Assembly (NCBI GenBank): GCA_028867785.1
Contig: JAGWFS010000002.1
Span: 116,678 to 148,677, forward strand
From: Nitrososphaerota archaeon
GTDB taxonomy: Archaea; Thermoproteota; Nitrososphaeria; Nitrososphaerales; Nitrosopumilaceae
Length of the DNA stretch: 32,000 nt
Direction of reading: 5' to 3'
The notes beneath the pieces are model-generated. The model saw only the letters and a program-made list of their open reading frames with translations. It searched no databases and had not been told where the DNA came from. The translations under genes were made by a program, and so were the position numbers. Shown one piece after another: positions 3 to 16,523 of the stretch; the stretch's first letter is position 1, and every line of letters begins with the position of its first letter.

Positions 3-2000
3 AGGCAGATGACAATCGTCCAGGCAAATGTCACTTTACTCTATGAAAAAGATAATGAGGAATATGTCGTTAACATGATTGATACTCCTGGCCACATTGA
101 CTTTACAGGACGTGTGACCCGCAGTCTCAGGGCAATCGACGGAGCAGTCGTAGTGTCAGATTCCGTGGAAGGCATCATGACACAGACCGAGACAGTAACC
201 CGCCAGGCGCTCGAGGAGCGCGTAAGGCCGGTACTATACATCAACAAGATTGACCGTCTCATAAAGGAGCTCAGGCTGGCACCTGAGAAGATGCAGGAAT
301 GGCTGGTTGAAATCATAAACAACTTTAACAGGCTGATTGAGATTTACGCAGAGCCCGAGTACAGGGACAAGTGGAAGGTAAGCATTCAGGACGGGAGCGT
401 CTCCTTTGGTTCTGCAAAGGACAAGTGGGGATTCAATGCCGATGTAATGAAGAAAAAGGGAATCTCGTTTAAGGACATTTACGCTGCATATGCAGAGGGC
501 GGGGACGTCAAGGCGCTTGCCGAAAAGGCGCCACTGTACGATGCGGTTCTTGGGATGGTAGTAAAGCACCATCCGCCGCCGGATGTTGCACAAAAGTACA
601 GAATTCCAAAGATCTGGAAGGGTGATCTAGAGTCTGACATTGGAAAGGCACTGCTCAACTGTGATGACAACGGGCCTGCAATAATGATGATTGTAAACAT
701 GACCGTAGACCCTGCAGCGGGACCTGTTGCAATAGGCAGGCTGTTTTCTGGAAGGATAAAAGACGGCGACCGCATACACATTATTGATACAAAGAGGGAA
801 GGCAGAATCCAGTCTGTCAACTTTTTCATGGGAAACCAGAGGGAGATGGTAGGCGAGCTTGCCGCTGGAAATATTCCGGCACTCTTGGGCCTGGAACATG
901 CAAGGGCAGGGCAGACCATATCGACTATACCAAACGTTCCTACATTTGAGGGAATCCAGTACGTGTCAGAGCCTGTCGTGCAGATTGCGGTAGAGCCAAA
1001 ACATCCAAAGGACCTGCCAAAGCTTGTCGAGGCGCTAAACCGTATTACAATAGAGGACCCCAACCTGCAGGTCAAGATTAACGAGGAGAGCGGCGAGACC
1101 GTAATTGCCGGAATGGGAGTGCTTCACCTTGAGATTGCAACTGCGCTAATTGCAGATGCCAAGGTGGAGATTGTGACATCGCAGCCCTTGATAAACTACA
1201 GGGAGACGATCCGGGGCTCTGCAGGACCAATCATGGCAAAATCTCCAAACAGACACAACAAGATATTCATGAAAGTTGAACCGCTAGACGAAAAGGTTTC
1301 CGAGATGATAAGAAACGGCACTCTAAACGAGTACAAGGACAAGAAGGAGGTGCAGAAGATACTAAAGGAAGCCGGATGGGACAGCGATGACGCAAAACGT
1401 GTAATGAGGTTTGATACTAGGGGAAACGTCATGGTTGACGGCACAAAAGGTGTGCAGTTTGTACAGGAATCAACCGATTCCATACTTTCAGGATTTGATG
1501 ATACCATGAAGGAGGGTCCGCTGACACGAGAACAGGTGAGGGGATGCAAGTTTACATTCCATCACTTTGTACCTCACGAGGACCCGGCACACAGGGGTCT
1601 GTCACAGCTTGGTCCTGCATCAAGACGCGCATGCATGGGGGCAATGCTTCTTGCACAGCCCGTACTGCTAGAGCCGACACTTGGAATAGAGGTGAGAATT
1701 CCGCAGGAGCTCATCGGAAACGTGGCAGGCGTGATATCAGGAAAGCGTGGCAAGGTGCTAAACATGGAGCAAAAAGGCGTGGTAAACATTGTTACCGGGG
1801 AGATTCCGGCATCTGAAACATTTGACTTGTCAGAGGTAATGCGCGGACAGACCGCAGGAAAGGCAATGTGGAACACGCATTTCAAGGCATGGACCCCTGT
1901 TCCAAACTCTATACTTGGAACAATCATAAGTGATCTGCGAAAGAGGAAGGGACTCAGCCCAGAGCCTCCGACGGCAGACGAGTTTGTGGATAAAGAGTAA
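3..2000 (+). CDS. fusA: Translation elongation factor 2 (aEF-2), 5' end outside window
   Basis: The reading frame is open from base 3. GTPase motifs DTPGHIDF and NKIDR are present, domain IV carries the diphthamide-site motif HEDPAHRG, and the 663 aa are collinear with EF-2/EF-G. The antisense ORFs inside it are shadows. Confidence 0.97.
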   Translation, partial: RQMTIVQANVTLLYEKDNEEYVVNMIDTPGHIDFTGRVTRSLRAIDGAVVVSDSVEGIMTQTETVTRQALEERVRPVLYINKIDRLIKELRLAPEKMQEWLVEIINNFNRLIEIYAEPEYRDKWKVSIQDGSVSFGSAKDKWGFNADVMKKKGISFKDIYAAYAEGGDVKALAEKAPLYDAVLGMVVKHHPPPDVAQKYRIPKIWKGDLESDIGKALLNCDDNGPAIMMIVNMTVDPAAGPVAIGRLFSGRIKDGDRIHIIDTKREGRIQSVNFFMGNQREMVGELAAGNIPALLGLEHARAGQTISTIPNVPTFEGIQYVSEPVVQIAVEPKHPKDLPKLVEALNRITIEDPNLQVKINEESGETVIAGMGVLHLEIATALIADAKVEIVTSQPLINYRETIRGSAGPIMAKSPNRHNKIFMKVEPLDEKVSEMIRNGTLNEYKDKKEVQKILKEAGWDSDDAKRVMRFDTRGNVMVDGTKGVQFVQESTDSILSGFDDTMKEGPLTREQVRGCKFTFHHFVPHEDPAHRGLSQLGPASRRACMGAMLLAQPVLLEPTLGIEVRIPQELIGNVAGVISGKRGKVLNMEQKGVVNIVTGEIPASETFDLSEVMRGQTAGKAMWNTHFKAWTPVPNSILGTIISDLRKRKGLSPEPPTADEFVDKE

Positions 2001-2106
2001 AAATAGTAAACCCCCCGTTTAGGCGTGGAAATTGAAGCTACTAGATAATAACGAAAGTTATGATTTGTTGGAGAAGATTTAAGATCAATATGAAAATTAT
2101 GATGAT

Positions 2107-2364
2107 ATGAAACGTAGCTACCTCATTTTGATCATTCTGATTAGTTCTGTAGTGGTAAATTTTTCCTTTATACTTATAATTACAAATCTACTTGGTGAGC
2201 TTTTCCCATCTCAAAATACTAGCTTCATGTACCCTACAACTTCACTAAGCGAGTTAGGCATGTTTCGTCCTATTTTATGGCAGGTCGAACAATATCTTAT
2301 TTTGATACTAGCAGTATGGCTAGTAATCACTTTCAGACATAAGATGATGCACTTTTTATCATGA
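2107..2364 (+). CDS. Hypothetical small membrane protein
   Basis: 85-aa ORF with two strongly hydrophobic segments. Its stop overlaps the ATG of the next ORF (ATGA). It is very AT-rich and no family was recognised. Confidence 0.3.
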   Translation: MKRSYLILIILISSVVVNFSFILIITNLLGELFPSQNTSFMYPTTSLSELGMFRPILWQVEQYLILILAVWLVITFRHKMMHFLS

Positions 2365-2633
2365 CCCTGAAAGGAAAAAATAATCACTACAACATAAAAT
2401 TCCTCAAAGGCTACGGATTCTCAATCAAAGTTAAAGATTCGAAAGATTGTTCTCAAGAATACATCAACAGAAGTGACAACGACAGTTATGGAATTAATGG
2501 GGGAAATGCCACATTCCAATTTATTTATAAAAGTGTACAAAATGATTATCATGTTTGGAATTTTACAGATCCGTTATCAATAATGGTAAAGGGGTGTGTA
2601 GATAATCACAATGAAGACATACCTTGTAGATGA
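2361..2633 (+). pseudogene. Copy A of a repeated gene 5' fragment (MTLKGKNNHYNIKFLKGYGFSIKVKDSK...), frame-disrupted
   Basis: The first ~28 codons are homologous to the fragments at 3695 and 4791. The plausible continuation (..KIVLKN..) is reached only after a 1-nt shift near 2445. The rest of the ORF has no recognisable family. Confidence 0.4.
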
Positions 2634-2695
2634 CAATCTTATAGGCAGTATTTTCTAACAAATCATAACGTTTCACATAACGTAGTTGTCGGGAT

Positions 2696-2738
2696 TTTTT
2701 ATTCGTAAAAGGCAAAGCCCCCCTTTTACGAATAAAAA
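2696..2738. repeat. Perfect 17-bp inverted repeat with a 9-nt spacer
   Basis: tttttattcgtaaaagg (2696-2712) and ccttttacgaataaaaa (2722-2738) are exact reverse complements, separated by the spacer caaagcccc. The element is intergenic. Confidence 0.9.
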
Positions 2739-2786
2739 CATGTTATTGTCGTAAAACTTTAGAAGATTAGAAAATAATCAAATTCA

Positions 2787-3695
2787 ATGAATGCCATAAT
2801 GGTGGTTGGAATGGGTTTTCTGATAGTATTATCTTGTTCCAATATTGTTTTTGCACAAAGAATTATCGCAAATCCCAACATTACCGTCAAGACCGACAAA
2901 TCATCATATATCTTTGGAGATACGATTGTGATTTCTGGCACTGTTAAAACTGTTCTAGAGGGGGACACTATAACCATCCAAATTTTAGATCCTTACAGTA
3001 ATTTAATCCGGGCATCACAGGCTAATGTTGCTCAAGATGGCACTTACACAGGCTCGGTGGAGATAACCGGTTCTGAGTGGAAATCAAGCGGTGTTTATAC
3101 CGTTCTAATTCAATATGGTTCTGAAGTTCAAACCCAAACAACTTTTGCGTTTACGGCAACAACTATTCCCATCAATGGTATATTCCAAGTTCAAATTCCA
3201 AATAACCCCCAGATCTTTAATGTGCCATATACTATTTTTGGAGGATCGGTGACGAACATGTCTGTTAATATCTTGGATCCTTCTCTGACTGTATCTTTAC
3301 TATCAGTTAATTACGGCGCAATCGCACTCTCACTCCAACGGTCTTTACTTGATGCAAAGACAAGTAATGATACCGACGAGCCGTTTACTATCTTAATCGA
3401 TGGTACCGAGATTACACCACAAAAAGAACAGGTGACTTCAAATGATAGAACTTTGACAATACAGTTCCTGCAAGGAGACAAAAATATACAAATTATCGGT
3501 ACCAGTGTAGCATCCCAAAATAATTCTACTATTAATACAAGTACAAATGTGACCACAAATCAGCGACTATCTGCGCAGACTACTAACATGTCAAAACCTA
3601 TTCCGGCAGTACCTGAATTTCCCATTAGCGCATTTGTTCTTTTAATTTCCATTTCGTTCCTAATTCTAATGACGAGATCTACTCCGAAATTCTAA
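2787..3695 (+). CDS. Secreted surface protein with a PEFG-CTERM-like archaeosortase sorting signal
   Basis: It has an N-terminal signal/TM segment (MNAIMVVGMGFLIVLSCSNIVFA) and a Ser/Thr/Asn-rich linker. The C-terminus is AVPEFP followed by a hydrophobic helix (ISAFVLLISISFLILM) and a basic tail (TRSTPKF). Confidence 0.75.
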   Translation: MNAIMVVGMGFLIVLSCSNIVFAQRIIANPNITVKTDKSSYIFGDTIVISGTVKTVLEGDTITIQILDPYSNLIRASQANVAQDGTYTGSVEITGSEWKSSGVYTVLIQYGSEVQTQTTFAFTATTIPINGIFQVQIPNNPQIFNVPYTIFGGSVTNMSVNILDPSLTVSLLSVNYGAIALSLQRSLLDAKTSNDTDEPFTILIDGTEITPQKEQVTSNDRTLTIQFLQGDKNIQIIGTSVASQNNSTINTSTNVTTNQRLSAQTTNMSKPIPAVPEFPISAFVLLISISFLILMTRSTPKF

Positions 3696-3766
3696 TGACT
3701 CTCAAGGGCAAGAAAAGCCACTATGATGTCAAGCTCTTTCGTGGTTATGTCGTATCAGTAATCTAA
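3695..3766 (+). pseudogene. Copy B of the repeated gene 5' fragment (MTLKGKKSHYDVKLFRGYVVSVI*)
   Basis: The ATG overlaps the upstream stop (TAATG). It aligns codon for codon with copy A and carries an in-frame TAA where copy A has AAA. The downstream sequence is degraded. Confidence 0.4.
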
Positions 3767-4342
3767 TTCAGACAAGAAGAGATTTTGGTTGTCAGAGTTA
3801 AAGTCGTTAAATGATTATTCATTTTGTGATTCTGTATCCATGTCTATTGATCTTGTAGGAAAGTTGGTTTCAAAGGACGAAGTTAAGTTTTATGATGATG
3901 AAAAATATGAACCTGAAAGCGAATTATGATAAATATCATACTTCTGGTTTTTTAGACTTTATTATTTGGAAAACTAATTTTTGTTGGACACATCTGGCTT
4001 TGATAATTCATCAAACAAACGAAATAAAAGAACTAATGATTATGAATTTGGCTTTAGTAATTCTGGAAATAGAAAAAGAAAATCGGATGGATTTAACTCA
4101 ATGTTTGGTATGGGCGAAACTTCGAAATCTAGAAGAAAAAGATCATCTGGTTCTGATTCCGTGTTCGAATTTTAAAGAATCTAAGGAATTAGATTTTCTA
4201 CCAACTGTTGAACGTAAATTTTGGCAATTGTAACTTCTTGACACATTGACATTCCATCCTCTCTTTTCAATCCATGCTTGAACTTGTAGGATCTTTCAGA
4301 CAGAAACTTCCTTTCTAAAACTTCCAAAAACCTTAAATCAAA

Positions 4343-4618
4343 TTGCATGCATATTACAGCGTGTCCACAAAAACAATCGGGATAATAATAGGCGGTTTTG
4401 CCGGAGGAGTCGTTGCAATATCGCTTGTCATGATGGCAGGATCGGGGTGGGAGACACCAGGGCAGTATACTGGAATAAGCAACGCCGCACATGCTACCAG
4501 TGACTCGACACATTGCTATGCGTTTCAGACCGGATGCAGTGTTTCAAATTATGGCAGCACCACAACCGCATCAGACTATGATGGACAAGCTCTAAGCGGC
4601 AGTTATAGCGGGCCGTAG
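4343..4618 (+). CDS. Hypothetical membrane-anchored small protein
   Basis: 91-aa ORF with one clear TM segment (IGIIIGGFAGGVVAISLVMMAG) followed by a Ser/Thr/Gly-rich tail. No family was recognised. Confidence 0.3.
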   Translation: MHAYYSVSTKTIGIIIGGFAGGVVAISLVMMAGSGWETPGQYTGISNAAHATSDSTHCYAFQTGCSVSNYGSTTTASDYDGQALSGSYSGP

Positions 4619-4790
4619 TTTTTACATCCTTTAATCTTTAGGATAGTCTGTCACTTGGAAGTGATCTTTGCTCAATCCAAAGTATTGCGAGAACCGCCGG
4701 ATTTTTGTTTGTGAACTGTTGGTTTAGAAACAGGATTTCTGTTATCAGAAATGCCAATTTTTCTAGTAACAAGAAGACTGTGGCAATCTC

Positions 4791-4868
4791 ATGACTAGAA
4801 GGAAAACAAAATCATTTCAACATAAAATTTCTAAAGGGATCTTTTTTCCAGCTTTAAATTTCAAATAA
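4791..4868 (+). pseudogene. Copy C of the repeated gene 5' fragment (most degraded)
   Basis: There is DNA-level similarity to copy A: aaggaaaacaaaatcatttcaacataaaatttctaaagg versus aaggaaaaaataatcactacaacataaaattcctcaaagg. It starts with ATGACT like copy B. Confidence 0.3.
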
Positions 4869-4973
4869 AACATCAATAACTGGCGCGTCTCCTGCTTATC
4901 AGCTAACATTATGATAAATCAGCTTTAATGTTGAATTTGAGTAATTAAGTAACTCCACTATAGTTGGTTTATC

Positions 4974-5228
4974 ATGTCACAAAAAATGGTGCAGCCTATT
5001 CAAACGGCATTTGTAATGGTCAACTGCGAATATGGGCATGAAAGCGGTGTAATTGAGCAGTTAAGAACCATTGAAGGGGTCAAAGAGACTATCAGAACGA
5101 GCGGGCCCTATGACATACTTTGTAATATTGAAGTATCGACAGTGGAGTCCCTAAAAGAGGTCATTGAGCAAAAAATTCGCAAGACTCCTCATACGATATC
5201 AACTACCACACTCATCAAGTCGCACTAG
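4974..5228 (+). CDS. Stand-alone Lrp/AsnC-type ligand-binding (RAM) domain protein
   Basis: The 84 aa follow the RAM-domain pattern: AFVMVNCE...VIEQLRTIEGVKETIRTSGPYDILCNIEV...LKEVIEQKIRKTPHTISTTTL. There is no N-terminal HTH. Confidence 0.7.
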   Translation: MSQKMVQPIQTAFVMVNCEYGHESGVIEQLRTIEGVKETIRTSGPYDILCNIEVSTVESLKEVIEQKIRKTPHTISTTTLIKSH

Positions 5229-5283
5229 CTGCTTATTTTTTCACCATGGGAACCTTTAAGGTTGCTGCAAAAGTTATGACTGT

Positions 5284-5511
5284 ATGCAGCGCGGCACCAT
5301 AATAATGATAGTCGGAATCTCAATGCAAATCATAAACTGGCTACTATCTACTACTCTATCCAATTCGCCAAGCTTTCAGCCATACAAAGGTACGATGGGA
5401 ACAGTGACAATTTTTGGCTGGATCTTGTTTTTTGCGGGCTTTGCGATAAGACATTTTGACAAAAAGAAGCTGCCACTTGATGACTCGAAAAGAAAACCAA
5501 GACGCAGATAA
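5284..5511 (+). CDS. Hypothetical small membrane protein (2 TM, basic tail)
   Basis: It has two hydrophobic helices and a KKKLPLDDSKRKPRRR tail. Its stop overlaps the next ATG (TAATG). Confidence 0.4.
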   Translation: MQRGTIIMIVGISMQIINWLLSTTLSNSPSFQPYKGTMGTVTIFGWILFFAGFAIRHFDKKKLPLDDSKRKPRRR

Positions 5512-5852
5512 TGATAATACAAAAAGCTGCAATCTCTGACGCAAAGGAAATACTATCGCTTCAAAAAATATCCTATAAAAGTGAGGCTGATCTTTACAAC
5601 AACCATTGCATACCTTCGATGACCGAGACCCTGGAAGACATGCAAAACGAGTTTGAACACAAGACATTTCTCAAATCTGCGGCGGATGGAAACATAGTGG
5701 GGATTCGCGACCATATGGTTCATTTCAGGTTCATCCGAGATACTGGTTGTAAGGGCATTCTACACGAGAATGTGTATTATACCAAGAATACCGATAATAA
5801 GAAGTCAGTACACACTAAATCATGCAGAAGGCAGAGAAGAAAAGACCAATAA
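5511..5852 (+). pseudogene. GNAT N-acetyltransferase, disrupted
   Basis: The N-terminal ~65 aa match the common GNAT pattern (MIIQKAAISDAKEILSLQKISYKSEADLYNNHCIPSMTETLEDMQNEFEHKTFLKSAADGNIVG). After ~5705 the expected motif A is split between frames (VHPRYW at 5729-5746 in another frame, KGI at 5751-5759), with a stop in between. The 3' end is overlapped by the antitoxin ORF. Confidence 0.55.
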
Positions 5853-6028
5853 TCGATCCAAATGGCCATAAGCTTTCAAAGAAGGCTATGAAAAAACTGC
5901 CAAGAACAGAGCTAAGCCCGAAAGTGGAAAAGGCATTAGATGATATAGCTACTGGGAAAGAGAAATTAGTCAAATATGACAATTTCGATGAATATATCAA
6001 GCATGTCAAACAAGTTTTAGAAGAATAA
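5822..6028 (+). CDS. Putative antitoxin (RelB/ParD-like by position)
   Basis: 68-aa charged protein immediately upstream (4-nt gap) of a RelE/ParE-like toxin gene. Its size and genetic arrangement are typical of a type II antitoxin. Confidence 0.55.
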   Translation: MQKAEKKRPIIDPNGHKLSKKAMKKLPRTELSPKVEKALDDIATGKEKLVKYDNFDEYIKHVKQVLEE

Positions 6029-6032
6029 AAAC

Positions 6033-6320
6033 TTGCATAGGGTGGAAGCACGTGACAATACAATAGATAAAAAATTAAAGAAATTCAAGTCAGATAAAGC
6101 TGTAATTGAAGGATATTTTCGGGTTTTGGAAGAGTTGAAAATAACACAGGATCCGAGAATTATTGGAGAACGAAAACATGGGATTTATAGAAATTGTCAT
6201 GCCATCCACATAACAAAAAACCACAGCCTGCTTTACATTTACTATCCTGAACAAAATTTAGTGCAACTAATTGACTTGGACGATCACAAGAATCTTTACG
6301 GTAGAGATAACAGGAATTAA
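6033..6320 (+). CDS. RelE/ParE-superfamily type II toxin
   Basis: The 95 aa carry the family pattern ...LEELKITQDPRIIGERKHGIYRNCHAIHITKNHSLLYIYYPEQNLVQLIDLDDHKNLY. The start is a non-ATG codon (TTG at 6033 or GTG at 6042). Confidence 0.7.
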   Translation: MHRVEARDNTIDKKLKKFKSDKAVIEGYFRVLEELKITQDPRIIGERKHGIYRNCHAIHITKNHSLLYIYYPEQNLVQLIDLDDHKNLYGRDNRN

Positions 6321-6529: not shown

Positions 6530-7660
6530 ATGAAAGTGTCCGCTATGGTAATCGCAAGTCTTGCCGTATTGGCAGTATTTTGTGCAGGTTTGATGCAGCA
6601 GTCGTTTGCTGACGGCTTCCAGCCGCCGCTATTCAAGTGGCTCTACAAACCAGCAATCTGCGTCTTTGAACCGTCTGATCCTCACTTTCCAGGCTTGGGA
6701 AAAAAGATGTTTTCCATGACACATGATGCCGTGCTTAGCTGGCAGACAAAACTCAATGGCGGCAACGCAAATGGTGCATGGAACCTGAGCCTAGTTGACA
6801 TTCCGTCTTCAGAAGCAAGCTCCTACGATGCAACTGACTGCGACATTACAGTCAACTTCAAACCGTCTCCTGACAATCCAAGTGAAAAATTCAACGAGGC
6901 TGGAATCACAGTATACAAGAACTTTCCAAAGGTATACGTCACAATATACTATCTGGGAATAAATCTAAAGGAACAATATCTGACGTTTTGGCAAAATGGA
7001 ACATTATACTATACGTATCAACCCATACCATACTTTACAGGGTATCTTGCAAGCGATCCGCAGCTTGAGATGACCATACTGCACGAACTTGGCCACTCTC
7101 TTGGGCTTGGGCATTACATTGTGCCCGATATGGAATTGAAGCGAATAGTGCAGGGCTATCAGGACATGCCATCAATCATGGTTACAACCGTGTTTAGTTA
7201 CGGCGTGACTCACTTTGACATCACCACTCTTGACATAAAAGAGATCCAGTCAATTTATGGTACTCAAGGACTGCCAACCAAACAATCCATATCCAATCAA
7301 AGCATTACCACAAGCACTGAAAACATTATTCCAAACCAAGTTAACATCTCACCGCAACAAAATCTCAGCCCTGTACCAACTGCAGGCACGCCGTCGCAGA
7401 TACCGTCATGGATAAAAAACATTGCCAGGTGGTGGTCTGCAAATCAAGTCAGCGATGATGAATTTGCAGGTGCTATGAAGTATTTGATCCAGCAGGGTAT
7501 CCTGAAAGTTCCTCCAACTCAGAGCACTGTATCCTCTGGGCATATTCCGTCCTGGGTAAAGACAAATTCTGGATACTGGGCAGATGGCAAGATATCTGAC
7601 TATGAATTTATCCGGGGAATCCAGTACTTGATAAGTACGGGAATAATCGTGATACAGTAA
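6530..7660 (+). CDS. Secreted zinc metalloprotease (metzincin/matrixin-like) with two C-terminal repeat modules
   Basis: It has a signal peptide (MKVSAMVIASLAVLAVFCAGLMQQSFA) and the zinc site HELGHSLGLGH (HExxHxxGxxH, 7082-7114). Two ~38-aa repeats, IPSW[IV]K..(x)..W..(x)..[IV]SD.EF..(x)..YLI..GI, lie at 7400-7657. Confidence 0.8.
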   Translation: MKVSAMVIASLAVLAVFCAGLMQQSFADGFQPPLFKWLYKPAICVFEPSDPHFPGLGKKMFSMTHDAVLSWQTKLNGGNANGAWNLSLVDIPSSEASSYDATDCDITVNFKPSPDNPSEKFNEAGITVYKNFPKVYVTIYYLGINLKEQYLTFWQNGTLYYTYQPIPYFTGYLASDPQLEMTILHELGHSLGLGHYIVPDMELKRIVQGYQDMPSIMVTTVFSYGVTHFDITTLDIKEIQSIYGTQGLPTKQSISNQSITTSTENIIPNQVNISPQQNLSPVPTAGTPSQIPSWIKNIARWWSANQVSDDEFAGAMKYLIQQGILKVPPTQSTVSSGHIPSWVKTNSGYWADGKISDYEFIRGIQYLISTGIIVIQ

Positions 7661-11988: not shown

Positions 11989-12152
11989 TAGGCTATAATT
12001 TTGCAGGTCTGCCATGAATCTGATATTTCACAATTTTGTCGTTTTACCTGTTCTCCTTGTAAGTTTTTGAATTCTTCTATCGATTGTCTGATGTATAGCT
12101 TGTGGTGATATTTGATGAGATCCTTTAACTAGTAACCGCACCCAGTTGGATC

Positions 12153-12494
12153 ATGGGCCAGAAAGGATCGGGAATTGAGAGGTTTCTTGCTCCATCTGTA
12201 AGTAAAATTGAGGAAGAATTGGGGCTACTCCGCGATGAAATTGAAAAAATGAACGAAAAAATAGACAAGACAGGCAGCAGACTTGCAAGACTGGAAGAGG
12301 ATCATAAGCGTCTCATGACAAAGCTGGACGCGCCAAATGGCTGGCTGCCAACTGAATCCCAGGTTTTGATCACTAGCATAAATGAGATGGAAAAACAGGA
12401 CAGGAATGAGATTGATGCCCTAAAGCGCTTCATGGATGTGGCACAAAGAAGGATTGTCATTTTGGAAGCCAAAATGAAAGAACTTGGCCAATGA
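12153..12494 (+). CDS. Hypothetical coiled-coil protein
   Basis: The 113 aa have heptad-like, charged, helix-forming sequence at both ends (EEELGLLRDEIEKMNEKIDK...; ...RRIVILEAKMKELGQ). Confidence 0.5.
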   Translation: MGQKGSGIERFLAPSVSKIEEELGLLRDEIEKMNEKIDKTGSRLARLEEDHKRLMTKLDAPNGWLPTESQVLITSINEMEKQDRNEIDALKRFMDVAQRRIVILEAKMKELGQ

Positions 12495-12625
12495 ACTGGT
12501 CAAAAACATCTTTTTCAACACTGCAGTCTTTTCATCATGGTTGTGTTTTTCTTCCGCTTAACTGTTTTACATAGAATAGATCCAACAGATTGCTAGGTGA
12601 TAAAAAACCAATTTGATATTTAGAA

Positions 12626-12647
12626 CCTGCCTAACATTGTTAATCCA
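12626..12647 (+). promoter_or_regulatory. Shared promoter-proximal motif, copy 1 (cctgcctaac-att-gttaatcca)
   Basis: 19 of 22 positions are identical to 12923-12944. It contains the palindromic core TAAC-N3-GTTA, is followed directly by a TATA-like aatataataaa, and ends 53 nt before the ATG at 12701. Confidence 0.5.
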
Positions 12648-12700
12648 AATATAATAAAGTGAATTAGAAAGTTAATCTCAAGAAATTGTTTAATCGGGCA

Positions 12701-12826
12701 ATGGGCGAGGCAGTGGTCAGTGTCTTTGTCTATATTGGAATAGGATCGGGAATATTGCTAGTGGGTGCAATTGGATTATTTCTACTTGGGGATGAAATCC
12801 GTAAGATTTCCAGGTTTAGAATTTGA
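12701..12826 (+). CDS. Tiny membrane protein (41 aa)
   Basis: An ORF not in the track: MGEAVVSVFVYIGIGSGILLVGAIGLFLLGDEIRKISRFRI. It has one TM helix, a motif plus TATA upstream, and shares Y-x-GIG with the 12987 product. Confidence 0.35.
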   Translation: MGEAVVSVFVYIGIGSGILLVGAIGLFLLGDEIRKISRFRI

Positions 12827-12922
12827 TTCATGATTGTGACAAACACGTCAGTTGAATCTTACTGCAAGTCATATCATCTGTCTGTCATGATGCGCAGCCT
12901 GCTGTCATGACAATATAAAATT

Positions 12923-12944
12923 CCTGCCTAACTCGGTTAATCCA
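12923..12944 (+). promoter_or_regulatory. Shared promoter-proximal motif, copy 2 (cctgcctaac-tcg-gttaatcca)
   Basis: See copy 1. It is followed by the TATA-like ttaatagaaa and ends 42 nt before the ATG at 12987. Confidence 0.5.
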
Positions 12945-12986
12945 GCCTTAATAGAAATCATGTAGTAATCACTGTGAAGATTCTAC

Positions 12987-13184
12987 ATGAACAAGGCGAC
13001 GTACTATGCGGGAATTGGAATTGCATCAGCTGCATTTCTGTTTCTCATCTTTACAGAAATGAAATGGCACGCGGAGCCAGGCGTTGTTGGCGGCTTGATT
13101 GCTGCTGTAATAGTGGGCGGATGCATCCTCATGGCCTTTTCAGATAAAATTGAAAAAACAGACAAGATGAGCAAGACTTACTGA
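12987..13184 (+). CDS. Small membrane protein (65 aa, 2 TM), convergent with amoA
   Basis: It has two hydrophobic helices (YYAGIGIASAAFLFLIF; VVGGLIAAVIVGGCILMAF) and the conserved upstream motif. Confidence 0.5.
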   Translation: MNKATYYAGIGIASAAFLFLIFTEMKWHAEPGVVGGLIAAVIVGGCILMAFSDKIEKTDKMSKTY

Positions 13185-13262
13185 CGCGTATAGGTTGCAT
13201 CATTGCGGATGGCGAATTACGGGATGTTATTCAGATCTGAAAATCGTTGTAAAAAGAGTTTT

Positions 13263-13300
13263 TTCGTGACTTTGCTTCATTTCACGGAAAAGAAAAGGGA
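13263..13300. terminator. Intergenic hairpin and T-tracts between convergent genes (amoA 3' end)
   Basis: The plus strand reads ttttcgtga...tcacggaaaag (cgtga/tcacg stem with flanking T/A runs). On the minus strand, directly after the amoA stop, the sequence is cccttttcttttcc, which resembles an archaeal oligo-T terminator. Confidence 0.4.
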
Positions 13301-13302
13301 GG

Positions 13303-13953
13303 TTAGTCCCACTTGGACCAAGCGGCCATCCACCTATAAGTCCAGGTTGTAAGTTTGCAACCTAGTGCGGTTATAGGCACAGTCAGGACCGCTCCAGCGC
13401 CTGCAGCAAGAGCCACAGGACTGTCATAGAACTTGCCTACCTGCGGTTCTATTGGGGTCATGTATGGTGGAAGTGTTGTTCTTGGATATTTGAAAGCAGT
13501 CTCCAACGGATCATTTATTGTCAGTAAATTGAGCATGTTGAACATTGGCAGAGACATTCCACACAGCACGCCGCCTACCAAGATCAACATGTGCTTGTTT
13601 CTCTTGGTTGCCCAATATGCAAGATCCATCAGTATGGCTGACGGTATGAATATTGGTACGACGATGAAGCTGTACGGATATCCTAGGGAGAACCACGCAC
13701 CTTTTGCAATCCATATGTACACTGTCATTATCAGCGCATAGTAGGTTGCCGTTCCTGGCACGCCAGTGAACGTAAGGTAGTATGCTGCACCGACGGCGAG
13801 CATCGTTGACTGGCCTATGGAGAAAATCACAAACGATGTCCAGGCCCAGTCGGTGTAGAACTCATAGTCTCCCGTGTTGATTGTCAACAAGGTTGAGTTG
13901 ACTGCTACAACTACTATGAATAAGTAGTGTGTGCATCTTCGTAACCAGACCAT
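13303..13953 (-). CDS. amoA: Ammonia monooxygenase subunit A (archaeal type)
   Basis: The 216 aa are near-collinear with archaeal AmoA as I know it: MVWLRRCTHYLFIVVVAVNSTLLTIN.GDY.FYTDWAWTSF...FTGVPGTATYY...AKGAWF.LGYPY.FIVVP...YWATKRNKH...MFNM.NLL...DPLE.AFKYPR.TLPPYMTPIEPQVGKFY.SPVAL..GAGAVL.VPI.ALG.KL.TWTYRWMAA. Confidence 0.97.
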   Translation of the reverse strand: MVWLRRCTHYLFIVVVAVNSTLLTINTGDYEFYTDWAWTSFVIFSIGQSTMLAVGAAYYLTFTGVPGTATYYALIMTVYIWIAKGAWFSLGYPYSFIVVPIFIPSAILMDLAYWATKRNKHMLILVGGVLCGMSLPMFNMLNLLTINDPLETAFKYPRTTLPPYMTPIEPQVGKFYDSPVALAAGAGAVLTVPITALGCKLTTWTYRWMAAWSKWD

Positions 13954-13974
13954 TTGATTTCCAATTGTGTTGTG

Positions 13975-13987
13975 ATTTTATTTAAAA
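13975..13987 (-). promoter_or_regulatory. Putative amoA TATA box
   Basis: The minus strand reads ttttaaataaaat, 22-34 nt upstream of the amoA ATG. This implies a leaderless or very short-leader mRNA. Confidence 0.5.
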
Positions 13988-14217
13988 CCTGACAGTCAAC
14001 CATTAAATGTCATCATGACACAATAAAGAACAATCTGCGGAGTTGACTGTGAATTACTTCATAATTCCAGCGTCTCAGCCAGACAAAACTCCGTAGATTA
14101 ATTATTGAAAAATTGTGCTACGATGAGTTACATTTAATTTCATTGTATTTCATGCAGCCCAAATGACAACAGCAAAAAATTTTAAAAAATATTGTGCATG
14201 ATCATATTTAAGAAAAG

Positions 14218-14232
14218 ATTAACTATGTTAAT
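14218..14232 (+). promoter_or_regulatory. Shared promoter-proximal motif, copy 3 (attaac-tat-gttaat, perfect palindrome)
   Basis: It has the same TAAC-N3-GTTAAT core as copies 1 and 2. It is followed by the TATA-like aaaataaata and ends 46 nt before the ATG at 14279. Confidence 0.4.
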
Positions 14233-14278
14233 CAGAAAATAAATAGTAACTAGCAAAAAAATTAAGCCTAGATACCTG

Positions 14279-14485
14279 ATGGAATTTCAATTATTAAATA
14301 TTAAAAAGATAAACAAATGGATCTTCATCCCGATTATTCTTGCCATCTTGGGCTCTACATCATTTGAAGCAACAAGGATCCACGACTCGGAGTTGTTCAT
14401 TGCTTCCGTAACTATGCTTGCACTTGTGTGCTGGATAACATTTGTTAGTTTGTGTGTAGCGGGTGTTGGAAGAATTCTAAAGTAG
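14279..14485 (+). CDS. Small membrane protein (68 aa, 2 TM), divergent from amoA
   Basis: It has two hydrophobic helices (WIFIPIILAILGSTSF; VTMLALVCWITFVSLCVAGV) and the upstream motif. Confidence 0.45.
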   Translation: MEFQLLNIKKINKWIFIPIILAILGSTSFEATRIHDSELFIASVTMLALVCWITFVSLCVAGVGRILK

Positions 14486-14633
14486 ACTCAAAAACGCTTG
14501 CAATTGATTGCTGGCAGAATTAGAACCGACTCGACACAGAACAATATTGCGTTCAAATGAAAACAATTGATATCAAAATACATTCCGTGCTTTATAATGG
14601 ATATAATAATGACCTTGCCCAATCCATAATATA

Positions 14634-15029
14634 GTGAAAAGCAAGATATCTGACATTCTTGCGATTGTTGCCATGGCCCTCCTGGTTACTTATATTGCAG
14701 ACGCAGCGGTGGGACAGGGAAAGGCGGGATTTCTACCTATGAGCGCAGAGCAGAGGGGAATGATATTTGGTATGACGTCCATTGTTCTGTTCTTTGCATC
14801 GTTTGGAACCGGATTTGGCCAAATGTCAAAACTTGCAACATTCCTTCTGATTGCAGGAGGCGCCCTGATGGGGACTTCCGTACTGGGGGCTACCGCAATG
14901 GGACATGGCGGACTTGCACACATCTCTGCATCGTTTGCAGGAATAATAGTAATAGGATATGTCATAATGGGGCTTGGAATATTCAAGCTGATCTACAAGA
15001 ACAGGACTGCCCAGAAGAACATTCACTAG
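14634..15029 (+). CDS. Hypothetical integral membrane protein (about 4 TM, Gly-rich)
   Basis: The 131 aa (GTG start in the track; an alternative ATG lies at 14673) contain four hydrophobic, Gly-rich segments. No family was recognised. Confidence 0.55.
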   Translation: MKSKISDILAIVAMALLVTYIADAAVGQGKAGFLPMSAEQRGMIFGMTSIVLFFASFGTGFGQMSKLATFLLIAGGALMGTSVLGATAMGHGGLAHISASFAGIIVIGYVIMGLGIFKLIYKNRTAQKNIH

Positions 15030-15188
15030 ATCTTTCCTTGTATGAATAGACAAGACAAAAGAAGATCGAATCACAACCCATTTGGGTTGATGGGAAACAG
15101 TCAGGCCTAAAATGATTTAAAAATTGGGTAACATTGGTTCACAAATATTAAATTTGTAATGCGGACTGGTGTATTGTGAGAGACTGCC

Positions 15189-16523
15189 ATGTCAGGCGGA
15201 TCAACAAGCGGTAAAAATGTGAAGAAAGGATTTACAAAAAAGAACACTGTCGTGTTTGCAACAGTGGTTACTGTCTCCATTGTGTCAATATTCTATTTGC
15301 TGTCGCCTTGTGCCGTAATGCCATGCGTATCTGCAGTCAACATCATACACAGTGCGTCTGCCCAAAGGCAAAACCAGCTTGTTGATTCCAACGGCCAATC
15401 ATCGTCGCAGCAACCCCGGCTTACCCTTCCACAGCTCTATAAACAGACCCAAGACTCGGTGGTGGAGATACAAAGCACGGCTGCAAACCCTGACTCTTAT
15501 ATTATAATAAACGGTGTGCCATCCAACGAAAATACCACCATGCTTGGCTCGGGATTTTTTTATGATGATAGCGGCCGCATAGTTACAAATGCGCATGTGG
15601 TAGGAGAGGATCATGTGGTACATGTAACCCTCACTGACGGCAATATCTATACAGCAAAAGTAGTTGGAAAAGACCCGTACAATGATCTAGCCGTGGTGCA
15701 GATAATTGATAATTTTACCGGTGAAAAAATAATACCATTGCAGCTCGGAGACTCTTCCCACCTTGAGGTAGGGCAGTCTGTAGCCGCAATAGGCAATCCG
15801 TTTGGTCTTGAGGATACCATTACTAGCGGCATCATATCGCAGCTTGGCCGGTCTCTTGTTGACGAGGAAACGGGCAGATTTTCCATTCCTGATGTCATTC
15901 AAACCAGCGCTGCAATAAACCCGGGAAACTCTGGCGGACCGCTTCTTAACATGTTCGGTCAGGTAATAGGGATGAACACTGCAATAAAGACTGATACGGG
16001 CAACTTTGCAGGAATAGGGTATGCGATTCCGTCAAACCAGATTGCCAGGATAGTGCCAATCCTCATAAAGGACGGAACGTACAAGCATCCCTGGCTGGGT
16101 ATTGTGGGAAGAAGCCTGACGCCGGATATTGCCCTTGTAAACGGGCTTGCAAGAAACTTCAAGGGTGTTGTAGTAGAGAAGGTTTCAACAGACAGCTCTG
16201 CCTCCAAGGCAGGTCTTGAAGCTGCGACTGATGATCAGGACGGCATGCCACATGGAGGGGACATAATAGTCTCAGTTGACAGGCATCCAGTCAAGTCTGT
16301 TTATGACATCCTGAGTTATCTGGATGATAACAAATCCGTAGGGGATACAATGATTCTTGGAATAGACAGGGACGGCAAGATGATTGACGTAACTATGACA
16401 TTACAGGCAAGACCTCCTCCTGTGTCGCCTACTCCTCCAACCCCAACATCAAGCCCTGATTTTCCACAAATCCCAAGCTTTCCACAGATTCCAGGGTTTC
16501 CACAAATTCCGAACTTTCCATAA
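15189..16523 (+). CDS. htrA: HtrA/DegP-family serine protease (trypsin-like domain plus PDZ), membrane anchored
   Basis: It has an N-terminal TM anchor and catalytic-triad contexts TNAHVV, DLAVVQI and GNSGGPLLN. A PDZ-like region (WLGIVGRSL...GDIIVSVD) follows, then a Pro-rich C-terminal tail. Confidence 0.9.
   Translation: MSGGSTSGKNVKKGFTKKNTVVFATVVTVSIVSIFYLLSPCAVMPCVSAVNIIHSASAQRQNQLVDSNGQSSSQQPRLTLPQLYKQTQDSVVEIQSTAANPDSYIIINGVPSNENTTMLGSGFFYDDSGRIVTNAHVVGEDHVVHVTLTDGNIYTAKVVGKDPYNDLAVVQIIDNFTGEKIIPLQLGDSSHLEVGQSVAAIGNPFGLEDTITSGIISQLGRSLVDEETGRFSIPDVIQTSAAINPGNSGGPLLNMFGQVIGMNTAIKTDTGNFAGIGYAIPSNQIARIVPILIKDGTYKHPWLGIVGRSLTPDIALVNGLARNFKGVVVEKVSTDSSASKAGLEAATDDQDGMPHGGDIIVSVDRHPVKSVYDILSYLDDNKSVGDTMILGIDRDGKMIDVTMTLQARPPPVSPTPPTPTSSPDFPQIPSFPQIPGFPQIPNFP
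16461..16520 (+). repeat. 18-bp tandem repeat, 3.3 copies, coding for (FPQIPx)3FP at the HtrA C-terminus
   Basis: The units are tttccacaaatcccaagc, tttccacagattccaggg, tttccacaaattccgaac and a partial tttcca. Confidence 0.9.

What the first reader, a model, noticed from the sequence alone, without database searches (positions are those of the whole stretch)
2361..4868. Three diverged, truncated copies of the same gene 5' end, in one orientation, immediately downstream of aEF-2
Seen in the sequence: three ATG-initiated fragments lie on the plus strand.
- 2361: MTLKGKNNHYNIKFLKGYGFSIKVKDSK..
- 3695: MTLKGKKSHYDVKLFRGYVVSVI*
- 4791: the similarity is clear at the DNA level, with an indel.

The similarity begins exactly at the ATG in all three copies, and the upstream sequences are unrelated. 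Copies A and B differ mainly by synonymous or conservative codon changes (ctg/ctc, aaa/aag, gga/ggc, aac/gat...). This suggests they descend from separately evolving functional genes, not from a recent local duplication. Each copy is now dead: B has TAA where A has AAA, A reaches ..KIVLKN.. only after a 1-nt shift, and C is frameshifted.

Established knowledge, from memory and in need of verification: thaumarchaeal family-1 casposons were reported to integrate in the 3'-distal region of the aEF-2 gene, sometimes in tandem.

Inference: this is a graveyard of successive integrations by related mobile elements that target the aEF-2 flank. The L-x-GYG-x-S-[IV]-x-V-x(3,4)-IVLK pattern reminds me of the N-terminal strand-turn-strand of Cas1-family proteins (casposases), but that is a weak pattern-level impression.
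Basis: partly seen in the sequence, partly recalled or inferred. Interest (0 to 1): 0.75.

Follow-up and report, generated by a model that had tools for sequence, protein, structure and literature searches.

The report
Decayed casposon stack behind aEF-2
The three gene starts are the dead 5' ends of Cas1-type transposase (casposase) genes, left by mobile elements called casposons that inserted one after another just behind the elongation factor aEF-2 gene of an ammonia-oxidising archaeon; this is a known kind of element and a known insertion site, seen here in an unusually decayed, stacked form.

Summary
A profile built from six intact casposases from other genomes finds four pieces in the window, all between 2361 and 4543:
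- stub A at 2361 (E 3e-13)
- stub B at 3695 (E 4e-6)
- stub C at 4791/4795 (E 1.5e-4)

Also missed were the last 54 codons of a protein-primed DNA polymerase B gene (3765-3929) and three casposon terminal inverted repeats (1998-2090 +, 2647-2712 -, 2707-2774 +).

The 13-bp target GTGGATAAAGAGT, preceded by TTT, is intact at the aEF-2 stop codon. A related genome (L013) has an empty site, with aEF-2 only 111 nt from the AsnC-type gene. All of 1999-4873 is therefore inserted casposon debris from at least three, probably four, elements of two lineages.

The similarity starts at the ATG because a hypervariable cargo gene sits between the terminal repeat and cas1.

Such repeats follow aEF-2 in 61 of 74 related species genomes, and at least 17 of those genomes carry similar stubs.

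Verdict: a new member of a known kind (family 1 casposons; tandem and decayed copies are already described). Interest is moderate.

The parts
9..2000 (+). aEF-2 gene. It is 5'-truncated by the window edge; the stop codon TAA is at 1998-2000.
   Evidence: The 663-aa ORF is 97-98% identical over its last 299 aa to aEF-2 of Nitrosotalea genomes assembled from metagenomes. The gene upstream of the casposon in L003 carries the EF-G/EF-2 Pfam domains.
1983..1998 (+). Casposase target: leader TTT (1983-1985) plus the 13-bp target/TSD GTGGATAAAGAGT (1986-1998), which ends on the T of the stop codon.
   Evidence: The sequence is. It matches the experimentally defined Ca. N. koreensis target, leader TTT plus ATTGATAAAGAGT; the ATAA ruler, A11 and T13 are conserved (PMC8464041). 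The same position is duplicated in L003 and L055.
1999..2090 (+). Left terminal inverted repeat (TIR) of element A, class 2 (...CCCCCC...GTTATGATTTGTTGGA...).
   Evidence: The nhmmer TIR profile scores E 1.6e-20. Near-identical sequence follows the aEF-2 stop in L008 and about 30 other genomes.
2107..2364 (+). Cargo ORF of element A: 85 aa, predicted two-transmembrane protein. Its stop overlaps the cas1 ATG (ATGA).
   Evidence: ORF list. It has no DNA homologue in the 84 loci. It occupies the variable slot between the TIR and cas1.
2361..2466 (+). Casposase (cas1) 5' stub A: codons 1-35, with a 1-nt insertion at about 2441-2445.
   Evidence: HMM E 2.8e-13. blastn hits in 26 loci. Alignments to intact cas1 of L016 and L054.
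2467..2646 (.). Filler of unknown origin inside element A.
   Evidence: No DNA match in any locus; tblastx gives only fragmentary hits at its edges and nothing across 2505-2628.
2647..2712 (-). Right TIR of element A (class 2). It lacks its outermost 12-17 nt.
   Evidence: nhmmer E 5.7e-10, matching profile positions 18-83 only. It forms inverted repeat I1 with 2054-2075. The motif ACGTTATGATTTGTTAGA lies on the minus strand.
2696..2738 (.). Perfect 17-nt palindrome where A's right TIR abuts B's left TIR. About 30 nt, including the TSD, have been lost at an AAAGG microhomology.
   Evidence: Inverted repeat I3. Compared with the intact TIR-TSD-TIR junction of L055 and the TIR of L031. The deletion itself is an inference.
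2707..2774 (+). Left TIR of element B, class 1 (...CCCCCC...ATGTTATTGTCGTAAAACTTTAGAA).
   Evidence: nhmmer E 8e-11. The 19-mer is found once against 0 expected. It matches the sequence just after the aEF-2 stop in L030, L048 and L058, and the second element of L055.
2787..3695 (+). Cargo ORF of element B: 302 aa, with a signal peptide and a weak PEFG-CTERM-like anchor. Its stop overlaps the cas1 ATG (TAATG).
   Evidence: ORF list. TIGR04296 match at E 0.013, below the curated cutoff. Intact orthologues linked to the same TIR occur in L008 and L010, with dN/dS 0.29-0.35.
3695..3766 (+). Casposase 5' stub B: codons 1-23 of the KLLRGYG lineage, ending in a TAA at the junction.
   Evidence: HMM E 3.8e-6. 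blastn to two stubs in L059. Alignment.
3759..3929 (+). [quoted passage not shown]
   Evidence: tblastn with residues 570-623 of the L003 623-aa protein gives 87% identity, E 7e-24. That protein matches PHROG DNA polymerase at E 1.4e-59 and carries exonuclease and polymerase motifs.
4181..4366 (-). Casposase 3' end (codons about 292-353) on the opposite strand.
   Evidence: HMM E 6.5e-21, profile positions 289-347. tblastn 68% identity to L003 Cas1, E 2e-20.
4322..4640 (+). Segment with a 91-aa ORF (4343-4618). Relatives carry it in the aEF-2 island, and the empty-site genome lacks it.
   Evidence: blastn to L016 (which also carries an intact cas1 on the same contig), L008, L010, L012, L005 and L038, all in the opposite orientation. 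No family match.
4669..4790 (+). Decayed 3' part of the cargo ORF of element C. The reading frame is lost.
   Evidence: blastn/tblastx to the ORF that precedes the stub lying directly behind aEF-2 in L015.
4791..4854 (+). Casposase 5' stub C: codons 1 to about 21, with a 1-nt deletion in codon 3.
   Evidence: HMM E 1.5e-4. blastn 92% over 40 nt to L066 and L030. 85% identical to A.
4861..4873 (+). Possible degenerate distal copy of the target-site duplication (TCAAATAAAACAT).
   Evidence: Only 6 of 13 nt match the target. Its position is right, immediately before the sequence that follows the stop codon in the empty site L013. Weak evidence.
4874..4973 (+). Ancestral aEF-2/AsnC intergenic sequence.
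   Evidence: blastn 82% to L013 10918-11000, which lies directly after the aEF-2 stop there.
4974..5228 (+). Host AsnC/Lrp ligand-binding-domain gene, the conserved right-hand neighbour.
   Evidence: PF01037 E 9e-13. It lies 111 nt from aEF-2 in L013, and 1.6-16 kb away in occupied genomes.

Best explanation
The region 1999-4873 is a stack of at least three, probably four, dead family 1 casposons inserted one after another at the aEF-2 target site of a Nitrosotalea-like ammonia-oxidising archaeon.

How each element arrived. The casposase (a Cas1 homologue) recognises TTT plus the last 13 bp of aEF-2 and inserts right after the T of the stop codon. The terminal repeat supplies the AA that restores a TAA stop.

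How the stack formed. New elements enter at the aEF-2-proximal copy of the target and push older ones away from the gene. C is therefore the oldest and most eroded, and A the youngest.

How each element died, by deletion:
- A kept both terminal repeats but lost everything between cas1 codon 35 and its right repeat.
- B kept its left repeat, a 302-aa cargo gene and 23 cas1 codons, now joined to the polB 3' end of an oppositely oriented element.
- That element also left a cas1 3' end on the minus strand.
- C kept a decayed cargo remnant and about 21 cas1 codons.

Why 5' stubs are what remains. cas1 lies next to the terminal repeat, separated from it only by a variable cargo gene whose stop overlaps the cas1 ATG. 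Deletions that kill the transposase but spare aEF-2, and in A and B also the cargo gene, necessarily leave a cas1 5' stub.

Shown: the identity of the pieces, the repeats, the target, the empty site, and the two lineages. Inferred: the order of insertion and the role of selection in shaping the stubs.
For: Identity of the pieces:
- Casposase HMM hits for A, B, C and a minus-strand 3' end.
- Intact relatives are Cas1: PF01867 E about 1e-48, TIGR00287, and PDB 6OPM at E 7e-33.
- A polB 3' end 87% identical to a casposon polymerase.

Element ends:
- TIR profile hits at 1998-2090 (+), 2712-2647 (-) and 2707-2766 (+).
- The target sequence equals the Ca. N. koreensis target except at positions 1-3.

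Insertion polymorphism:
- L013 has aEF-2, 111 nt, then AsnC, with no repeat and a TAG stop.
- The window has 2974 nt between the same genes, and its last about 100 nt align to the L013 spacer.

Reference architecture:
- L003 carries an intact 8-kb casposon flanked by atcgacaaagagt, followed by a second TIR, a cargo ORF and a cas1 stub.
- The Ca. N. devanaterra chromosome (L055) carries an intact element, the TSD gtcgacagcgagt, then a TIR and a stub of 73 codons.

Two lineages:
- A and C have KFLKGYGFSI; A's element has class 2 TIRs, and none survives for C.
- B has KLFRGY and a class 1 TIR, like L055 and L003.

Polarity:
- A C-like stub sits directly behind aEF-2 in L015.
- L002 and L003 share the same distal stub but differ in the proximal slot.
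- The most complete cas1 is proximal in L055, L003, L059, L025 and the window.

Cargo slot:
- The ORFs between the TIR and cas1 range from 0 to 302 aa and are unrelated to one another. Most overlap the ATG by ATGA.
- dN/dS is 0.27-0.35 for two of them.

Generality:
- A TIR follows the aEF-2 stop in 61 of 74 species genomes.
- Plus-strand cas1 5' stubs occur in at least 17 of them.
- TIR/TIR junctions occur in about 10.
Against: - No second good copy of the 13-bp target exists in the window. The A/B junction has lost it, and the distal candidate matches only 6 of 13 nt, so element boundaries other than A's rest on TIRs and homology.
- B, the polB/cas1 3' block and C have no right-hand TIR, so the number of independent insertions (three or four) is not fixed. 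Inversions occur in relatives, such as the reverse-complement TSD in L008, and could have scrambled fewer elements.
- Polarity is not universal. In L008 the distal stub is the longer one.
- 52 of the 61 TIR-positive loci were used to build the TIR profiles, so that count is partly circular. The internal TIR pairs and the window's own hits are independent.
- Purifying selection on the cargo genes may have acted while they were still in active casposons, not after capture.
Confidence: 0.9

Rival explanations
1. The stubs are not mere debris. The module of terminal repeat, cargo gene and cas1 5' end is retained by selection. Either the host has captured the casposon cargo (membrane or surface proteins placed behind a highly expressed gene), or short N-terminal Cas1 peptides or the occupied target protect against further casposon invasion.
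For: - In about 18 stubs from different genomes the cargo ORF upstream is still open (65-302 aa) while cas1 is truncated.
- ORF302 is intact in three genomes with dN/dS 0.29-0.35.
- The cargo ORF of the L003 and L043 stubs has dN/dS 0.27.
- All N-terminal stubs are on the aEF-2 strand.
- Several stubs span most of the Cas1 N-terminal domain, at 73-131 codons.
Against: - Stub lengths vary from 15 to 151 codons.
- A and C are frameshifted, and C's cargo ORF is dead.
- The stubs in this window, at 21-35 codons, are too short to fold.
- A single deletion leaves neighbouring genes intact without any selection.
- The low dN/dS could date from life inside active elements.
- No expression data are available.
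Confidence: 0.25
2. Only one or two casposons ever integrated here. The several cas1 and polB pieces arose from local duplications, inversions and deletions within them.
For: - Inversions do occur in this island in relatives (L008).
- B's cas1 5' end and the polB 3' end lie on the same strand, which needs a rearrangement or two elements.
- There are no TIRs distal to 2774.
Against: - A and B belong to different casposase and TIR lineages.
- A and C differ by 15% plus indels and follow unrelated cargo genes. C's cargo is orthologous to that of L015, and A's is unique.
- Each copy is closer to copies in other genomes than to the others in the window.
Confidence: 0.07
3. They are N-terminal halves of partitioned integrases of tyrosine-recombinase (SSV-type) elements, or 5' ends of a duplicated host gene family, unrelated to casposons.
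For: Archaeal integrases of that type are split on integration (established knowledge). Thaumarchaeal integrated elements mostly use tyrosine recombinases (PMC6563490).
Against: - All homologues are Cas1.
- The window has no tRNA gene.
- The fragments come with casposon TIRs and a polB fragment.
Confidence: 0.01

Closest known systems
Family 1 casposon at the ef-2 gene of Ca. Nitrosotalea devanaterra (Krupovic et al. 2019, PMC6563490; seen here as L055, LN890280.1)
   Same: Same genus-level host, same target (the last 13 bp of aEF-2), and the same class 1 terminal repeats. The casposase and pPolB are 64-87% identical to the window's fragments. It is also followed by a second repeat and a cas1 5' stub.
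   Different: The devanaterra element is intact (Cas1 350 aa, full polB). In the window every copy is dead and at least three are stacked. The downstream stub in devanaterra is not mentioned in the passages of that paper that I read.
Tandem family 1 casposons NitNF5-C1/C2 at ef-2 of Ca. Nitrosopumilus adriaticus (PMC6563490)
   Same: Repeated use of the same aEF-2 target gives a head-to-tail array.
   Different: Both NF5 elements are described as complete casposons separated by a TSD. Here only fragments remain and the internal TSD is lost.
Solo-TIRs and inactivated tandem copies of family 2 casposons in Methanosarcina (Krupovic et al. 2016, PMC4779613)
   Same: All or nearly all strains carry a casposon or its remnant at one preferred site. 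Remnants outnumber full elements, and tandem copies include inactivated ones.
   Different: The family, host and target differ (an intergenic site or tRNA-Leu). Those remnants are bare repeats, not repeat plus cargo gene plus cas1 5' stub.
Tn7 at attTn7 behind glmS
   Same: The transposase reads the 3' end of an essential gene and inserts just downstream. Islands of stacked, partly inactivated elements build up. Krupovic et al. draw the same parallel.
   Different: The transposition machinery is unrelated (TnsABCD versus a Cas1 casposase).
CRISPR array with leader-proximal spacer insertion
   Same: A Cas1-family integrase, a short leader, a duplicated repeat-like target and, by inference, polar stacking with the newest unit next to the leader.
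   Different: No regular repeat survives here. The units are kilobase elements or their remains, and there is no evidence of any immune function.

Membership tests
Family 1 casposon (thaumarchaeal, pPolB-encoding) | Encodes a compact Cas1-family casposase without a C-terminal HTH domain | tested here: met
   Four fragments match a profile of intact 350-355-aa casposases. Those proteins hit only PF01867, with no extra domain. Only fragments are present in the window.
Family 1 casposon (thaumarchaeal, pPolB-encoding) | [quoted passage not shown] | tested here: met
   The last 54 codons are present at 3765-3929, 87% identical to the L003 polymerase. That protein matches PHROG DNA polymerase at E 1e-59 and has Exo I/II and polymerase A/B/C-like motifs. 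It has no Pfam hit.
Family 1 casposon (thaumarchaeal, pPolB-encoding) | Terminal inverted repeats at both ends | tested here: met
   Element A has both, at 1998-2090 (+) and 2712-2647 (-). B has only the left one (2707-2774). None was found for the other remnants.
Family 1 casposon (thaumarchaeal, pPolB-encoding) | Target-site duplication flanking the element | tested here: inconclusive
   The proximal copy is intact (1986-1998). There is no second copy within 3 mismatches. The A/B junction has lost it, and the distal candidate at 4861-4873 matches 6 of 13 nt. Intact TSDs are seen in L003 and L055.
Family 1 casposon (thaumarchaeal, pPolB-encoding) | Insertion at the 3' end of aEF-2 without disrupting it | tested here: met
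   The TIR starts at 1999, one base into the stop codon, and the reading frame is preserved. The empty site in L013 confirms that this is an insertion.
Family 1 casposon (thaumarchaeal, pPolB-encoding) | Host is an ammonia-oxidising thaumarchaeon | tested here: met
   Archaeal amoA at 13303-13953. The aEF-2 is 97-98% identical to Nitrosotalea genomes assembled from metagenomes.
Active (autonomous) casposon | Complete casposase gene with catalytic residues, and both element ends intact | tested here: not met
   The longest cas1 piece is about 60 codons, and there is no intact cas1 anywhere in the 32-kb window. A's right TIR lacks its terminal 12-17 nt.
Cas1 (PF01867) | Catalytic Glu/His/Asp residues in the C-terminal domain | tested here: not met
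   The stubs cover profile positions 1-29 and the 3' piece covers 289-347. From memory, the catalytic region lies between these ranges; I did not map it on the profile. If so, it is absent.
CRISPR array | Regularly spaced direct repeats separating short spacers | tested here: not met
   There is only one copy of the target/repeat, and the direct-repeat scan of 1900-6000 found only short, low-identity families, none regularly spaced. Rfam found nothing.
SSV-type partitioned tyrosine integrase | Tyrosine recombinase fold; att site inside the int gene, usually at a tRNA | tested here: not met
   The homologues are Cas1, and the window has no tRNA.

The most novel reading that the evidence does not exclude
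In Nitrosotalea and related Nitrosopumilaceae, the aEF-2 flank is a near-universal, polar landing pad (occupied in 61 of 74 species genomes). Casposons are stacked there with the newest next to the gene and are then stripped of their transposition machinery, while the cargo gene wedged between the terminal repeat and cas1 is kept by the host. On this reading the cas1 5' stubs are the scars of repeated cargo capture, and the locus is a natural Cas1-driven, leader-proximal insertion array of the kind proposed as a precursor of CRISPR.
Probability: 0.3. Interest if true: 0.6.

Novelty: new member of a known kind. Interest (0 to 1): 0.38.

Why it matters
Casposons are the proposed ancestors of the CRISPR adaptation module, and few natural examples show what happens at their target sites over time.

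This locus, with the 80 related loci fetched here, shows several things:
- In one archaeal family the aEF-2 site is almost always occupied.
- Complete elements are rare: 5 of 74 species loci (L016, L025, L045, L054, L055) contain a full-length cas1.
- The usual residue is a terminal repeat plus a variable cargo gene plus a cas1 5' stub, often several in a row.

That extends the solo-TIR picture from Methanosarcina to family 1. It also offers a ready dataset for testing leader-proximal insertion polarity and cargo capture.

For genome annotation, short ORFs labelled 'Cas1' behind aEF-2 in ammonia oxidisers are transposon scars, not CRISPR components.

Tried and rejected
- **Second copy of the target.** I searched for a second copy of GTGGATAAAGAGTAA with up to 3 mismatches and found none.
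- **Degenerate TSD at the A/B junction.** I first read 2697-2712 (tttttattcgtaaaagg) as a degenerate TSD between A and B. I rejected this because the stretch aligns perfectly, in reverse complement, to the subterminal part of class 2 TIRs (L031 and L056; profile positions 18-83). The TSD is therefore deleted, not degenerate.
- **TTCTA motif.** I asked whether C and the L015 stub break at the same AAATTTCTAAA because of the TTCTA motif required at Ca. N. koreensis TIR ends. I dropped the idea because Nitrosotalea TIRs end in ...CCATTTTT, not TTCTA, and C's homology continues a few codons further.
- **Element A as a mobilisable miniature casposon.** I rejected this because its right TIR lacks the terminal nucleotides and no other copy of its internal junction exists in the 84 loci.
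- **DNA-level similarity.** A versus B is marginal and B versus C is nil. The case for B and C rests on profile and cross-genome matches.
- **Family searches.** Pfam found nothing in the short fragments themselves or in the polymerase. PHROGs was needed to identify the polymerase.
- **Other searches that returned nothing.** The exact-sequence look-up of ORF302 gave no record. tRNA and Rfam scans were empty.
- **cas1 stub behind inverted ORF302.** I looked for a cas1 stub behind the inverted ORF302 in L008 and L010 and found none.

Full report
**Setting**

The window comes from an ammonia-oxidising archaeon. It carries an archaeal amoA at 13303-13953. The last 299 residues of its aEF-2 (gene at 9-2000) are 97-98% identical to those of Nitrosotalea genomes assembled from metagenomes. 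The finding lies between the aEF-2 stop (1998-2000) and an AsnC/Lrp-type gene at 4974-5228.

**Checking the observation**

- At the DNA level, A and C share a 40-nt stretch at about 85% identity with one gap. No shuffle or background segment of the window reaches that score (z = 11).
- A and B are only marginally similar as DNA (z = 4.2). B and C are not similar.
- The back-translated pattern for MTLKGK(K/N) occurs exactly at 2361 and 3695, against 0.02 expected.

The decisive test is independent of the window. I built a profile from six full-length casposases taken from other genomes and searched all 1475 stop-to-stop peptides of the window. The four best hits were:

| Piece | Position | Profile positions | E-value |
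|---|---|---|---|
| cas1 3' end, minus strand | 4196-4366 | 289-347 | 6.5e-21 |
| A | 2361 | 1-29 | 2.8e-13 |
| B | 3695 | 1-22 | 3.8e-6 |
| C | frame from 4795 | 3-19 | 1.5e-4 |

Nothing else in the 32 kb scores below E = 1.

Further details:
- A carries a 1-nt insertion near 2441-2445, and its homology stops at 2466.
- C has a 1-nt deletion in codon 3 and then reads LEGKQNHFNIKFLKG.

**What the full-length gene is**

- The frame-corrected A sequence retrieved 68 proteins, all 40-123 aa. Several are labelled Cas1 or carry PF01867.
- One of them led to a metagenomic contig (L003). There, aEF-2 is followed by an 8-kb element with a 353-aa Cas1 and a 623-aa polymerase. Next come a second terminal repeat, a 201-aa called gene (219 codons from the first alternative start) and a 48-codon cas1 stub on the aEF-2 strand.
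- The full-length proteins match PF01867 at about 1e-48 and TIGR00287. Their best solved relative is 6OPM, which from memory is the Methanosarcina mazei casposase.
- The polymerase matches PHROG DNA-polymerase families (E 1.4e-59) and shows exonuclease and polymerase motifs.

The L003 element is flanked by atcgacaaagagt, the last 13 bp of aEF-2, and by inverted repeats. This is the family 1 casposon architecture. The literature confirms the aEF-2 target (PMC4046053), tandem insertion there (PMC6563490), and the experimentally defined target TTT plus ATTGATAAAGAGT (PMC8464041).

**Anatomy of the window**

- the last 54 codons of polB at 3765-3929 on the plus strand (87% identity)
- casposase codons 292-348 at 4366-4196 on the minus strand (68% identity)

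Profiles of the sequence that follows the aEF-2 stop codon in other genomes hit the window three times:
- 1998-2090 (+), class 2, E 1.6e-20
- 2712-2647 (-), class 2, E 5.7e-10, lacking the outermost 17 profile positions
- 2707-2766 (+), class 1, E 8e-11

The map from left to right is:

1. Target TTT/GTGGATAAAGAGT (1983-1998).
2. Element A: left TIR, an 85-aa two-transmembrane cargo ORF (2107-2364), cas1 codons 1-35 (2361-2466), 180 nt of unknown filler, then the right TIR.
3. Element B: left TIR (2707-2774), a 302-aa cargo ORF (2787-3695), and cas1 codons 1-23 (3695-3763).
4. A block from an oppositely oriented element: the polB 3' end (3759-3929), 270 nt of unknown sequence, and the cas1 3' end on the minus strand (4181-4366).
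5. A segment with a 91-aa ORF (4322-4640) that relatives also carry in this island.
6. Element C: the dead 3' part of a cargo ORF (about 4669-4790) and cas1 codons 1-21 (4791-4854).
7. A possible degenerate TSD (4861-4873).
8. The ancestral intergenic sequence (4874-4973).

The perfect 17-nt palindrome at 2696-2738 is the meeting point of A's right repeat and B's left repeat. Comparison with the intact junction in Ca. N. devanaterra (...ccattttt/gtcgacagcgagt/aaaaatgg...) indicates that about 30 nt, including the TSD, were lost at an AAAGG microhomology. This is an inference.

B's terminal TAA sits on the cas1/polB junction, so B was cut by a deletion, not by a nonsense mutation.

**Evidence that this is inserted DNA**

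I fetched the aEF-2 flank from 80 species-representative genomes.

- In L013, aEF-2 ends in TAG and the AsnC gene starts 111 nt later, with no repeat. The window's 4888-4970 aligns to that spacer at 82%.
- In other genomes the same two genes are 1.6 to 16 kb apart.
- In occupied sites the stop codon is TAA, with the AA contributed by the repeat.

**Separate origins of the copies**

- A and C belong to the KFLKGYGFSI-VKDSKI casposase lineage, which goes with class 2 repeats (...GTTATGATTTGTTGGA).
- B (KLFRGYVVSV), the polB piece and the cas1 3' piece belong to the KLLRGYGxSI-LKDNRI lineage, which goes with class 1 repeats (...TTGTCGTAAAACTTTAGAA). This is the lineage of the N. devanaterra element.
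- Each copy is closer to copies in other genomes than to its neighbours in the window.
- B's cas1 5' end and the polB 3' end lie on the same strand, whereas these genes are convergent in intact elements. They therefore come from two elements in opposite orientation, or from a rearrangement.

I conclude at least three and probably four insertions. A scrambled-single-element scenario is unlikely.

**Why the similarity starts at the ATG, and why 5' stubs remain**

Across 30-odd cas1 starts in the loci, the space between the terminal repeat and cas1 holds ORFs of 0-302 aa that are unrelated to one another. Most have N-terminal hydrophobic segments, and most overlap the cas1 start as ATGA. So the sequence upstream of cas1 is a hypervariable cargo slot.

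In the survey, cas1 5' stubs of 15-151 codons lie on the aEF-2 strand within 0.1-2.3 kb of the stop codon in at least 17 genomes, and several genomes have two or three. Full-length cas1 occurs in only five of the 74 species loci (L016, L025, L045, L054, L055); the metagenomic contig L003 is a further case.

The simplest reading is as follows. Deletions that inactivate the transposase are tolerated or favoured. Deletions that run into aEF-2 are lethal. Deletions that remove a useful cargo gene are disfavoured. What persists is therefore repeat plus cargo plus a piece of cas1.

Support for the cargo part is partial:
- ORF302 is intact and linked to the same repeat in L008 and L010, with dN/dS 0.29-0.35.
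- Another cargo gene shared by the L003 and L043 stubs gives dN/dS 0.27.
- That constraint may predate the death of the elements, and C's cargo gene is itself dead.

**Polarity**

- The window shows a gradient. A is the best preserved (both repeats, 35 codons), B is intermediate, and C is the most eroded.
- A C-like cargo-plus-stub module lies directly behind aEF-2 in L015.
- L002 and L003 share the same distal stub and downstream genes but differ in what lies upstream of it: L003 has aEF-2 followed by an intact casposon, while L002 has other genes and no aEF-2 within 10 kb.
- In L055, L003, L059 and L025 the complete or longest cas1 is the proximal one. L008 is an exception.

This fits insertion at the leader-adjacent target copy, as shown in vitro for the N. 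koreensis enzyme's requirement for the TTT leader. It remains an inference for this locus.

**Generality and novelty**

- A repeat-like sequence starts at the aEF-2 stop in 61 of 74 loci with enough sequence. Fifty-two of those sequences were used to build the profiles, so that count is partly circular.
- Independent repeat/repeat junctions inside arrays were found in about ten loci.
- Many contigs break just after aEF-2, as expected for repeated elements.

The kind of thing is known:
- family 1 casposons at ef-2, including tandem pairs
- casposon remnants and solo repeats at a near-universally occupied site in Methanosarcina mazei, with inactivated tandem copies in other Methanosarcina
- the Tn7/glmS analogy

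In the papers I could search, I did not find a description of multi-element decayed stacks, of the repeat-cargo-stub module, or of the high occupancy in Nitrosotalea. I therefore rate it a new member of a known kind with moderate interest.

**Other checks**

There are no tRNA genes and no Rfam families in the window. The fragments have nothing to do with tyrosine integrases.

Noticed in passing
window 12000-24560: A 12.5-kb segment has no counterpart at the syntenic position in four relatives (L013, L005, L012, L038). It holds amoA (13303-13953, minus strand), an HtrA-like protease, DUF7669 and a STAND ATPase-TPR protein. In those relatives the sequence matching window position 11990 lies 20-400 bp from the SNF2 gene end that matches 24572. 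In L017 the two flanks of amoA are only 110 nt apart.
   Followed up: partly
window 24575-27562 (minus strand): The SNF2-family helicase is interrupted by an intein (Intein_splicing plus LAGLIDADG_3 domains) and is 995 aa long. The orthologue in L002 is 569 aa with no intein domains listed.
   Followed up: no
window 1998-2000 and the aEF-2 stop codons of L005-L084: Where a casposon repeat follows aEF-2, the stop codon is TAA and the repeat supplies the AA. Three sites with no repeat use TAG or TGA (L013, L083, L075); other loci without a repeat hit still end in TAA. The element therefore rebuilds the stop codon on insertion.
   Followed up: partly
L008 11679-12673: The TIR-ORF302 module of the window's element B is present in L008 in inverted orientation. 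The 13-nt sequence next to its repeat (ACTTTGTCTACAA) is the reverse complement of the aEF-2 target, so a whole element end including its TSD has been inverted.
   Followed up: partly
window 2787-3695: ORF302 has a signal peptide and a C-terminal PEFP-plus-transmembrane tail that weakly resembles the PEFG-CTERM archaeosortase signal (E 0.013, below the cutoff). It appears to be a surface protein carried as casposon cargo.
   Followed up: partly
window 7361-7648 (within ORF 6530-7660): The C-terminal 95 aa or so of an M10-type metallopeptidase are 52% identical to the C-terminus of a 580-aa protein encoded inside the intact casposon of L003. A domain is shared between a host secreted protein and casposon cargo.
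   Followed up: no
window 5822-6320: A small ORF (5822-6028) is followed by a weak ParE/YafQ-like toxin ORF (6033-6320, below the Pfam cutoffs). This may be a toxin-antitoxin pair just beyond the island.
   Followed up: no
L055 17305-18230 (Ca. Nitrosotalea devanaterra LN890280.1): Directly after the intact ef-2 casposon of this cultured strain come an exact TSD (gtcgacagcgagt), a second terminal repeat, and a 73-codon cas1 stub that is 92% identical to the L003 casposase. This is a decayed second element.
   Followed up: partly
L003 10001-10300 versus L043 2016-2400: The same cargo gene (pS 0.28) is attached to cas1 5' ends that are far more diverged at synonymous sites (pS 0.70). This suggests cargo exchange between casposon lineages by recombination across the repeat-to-cas1 slot.
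   Followed up: no
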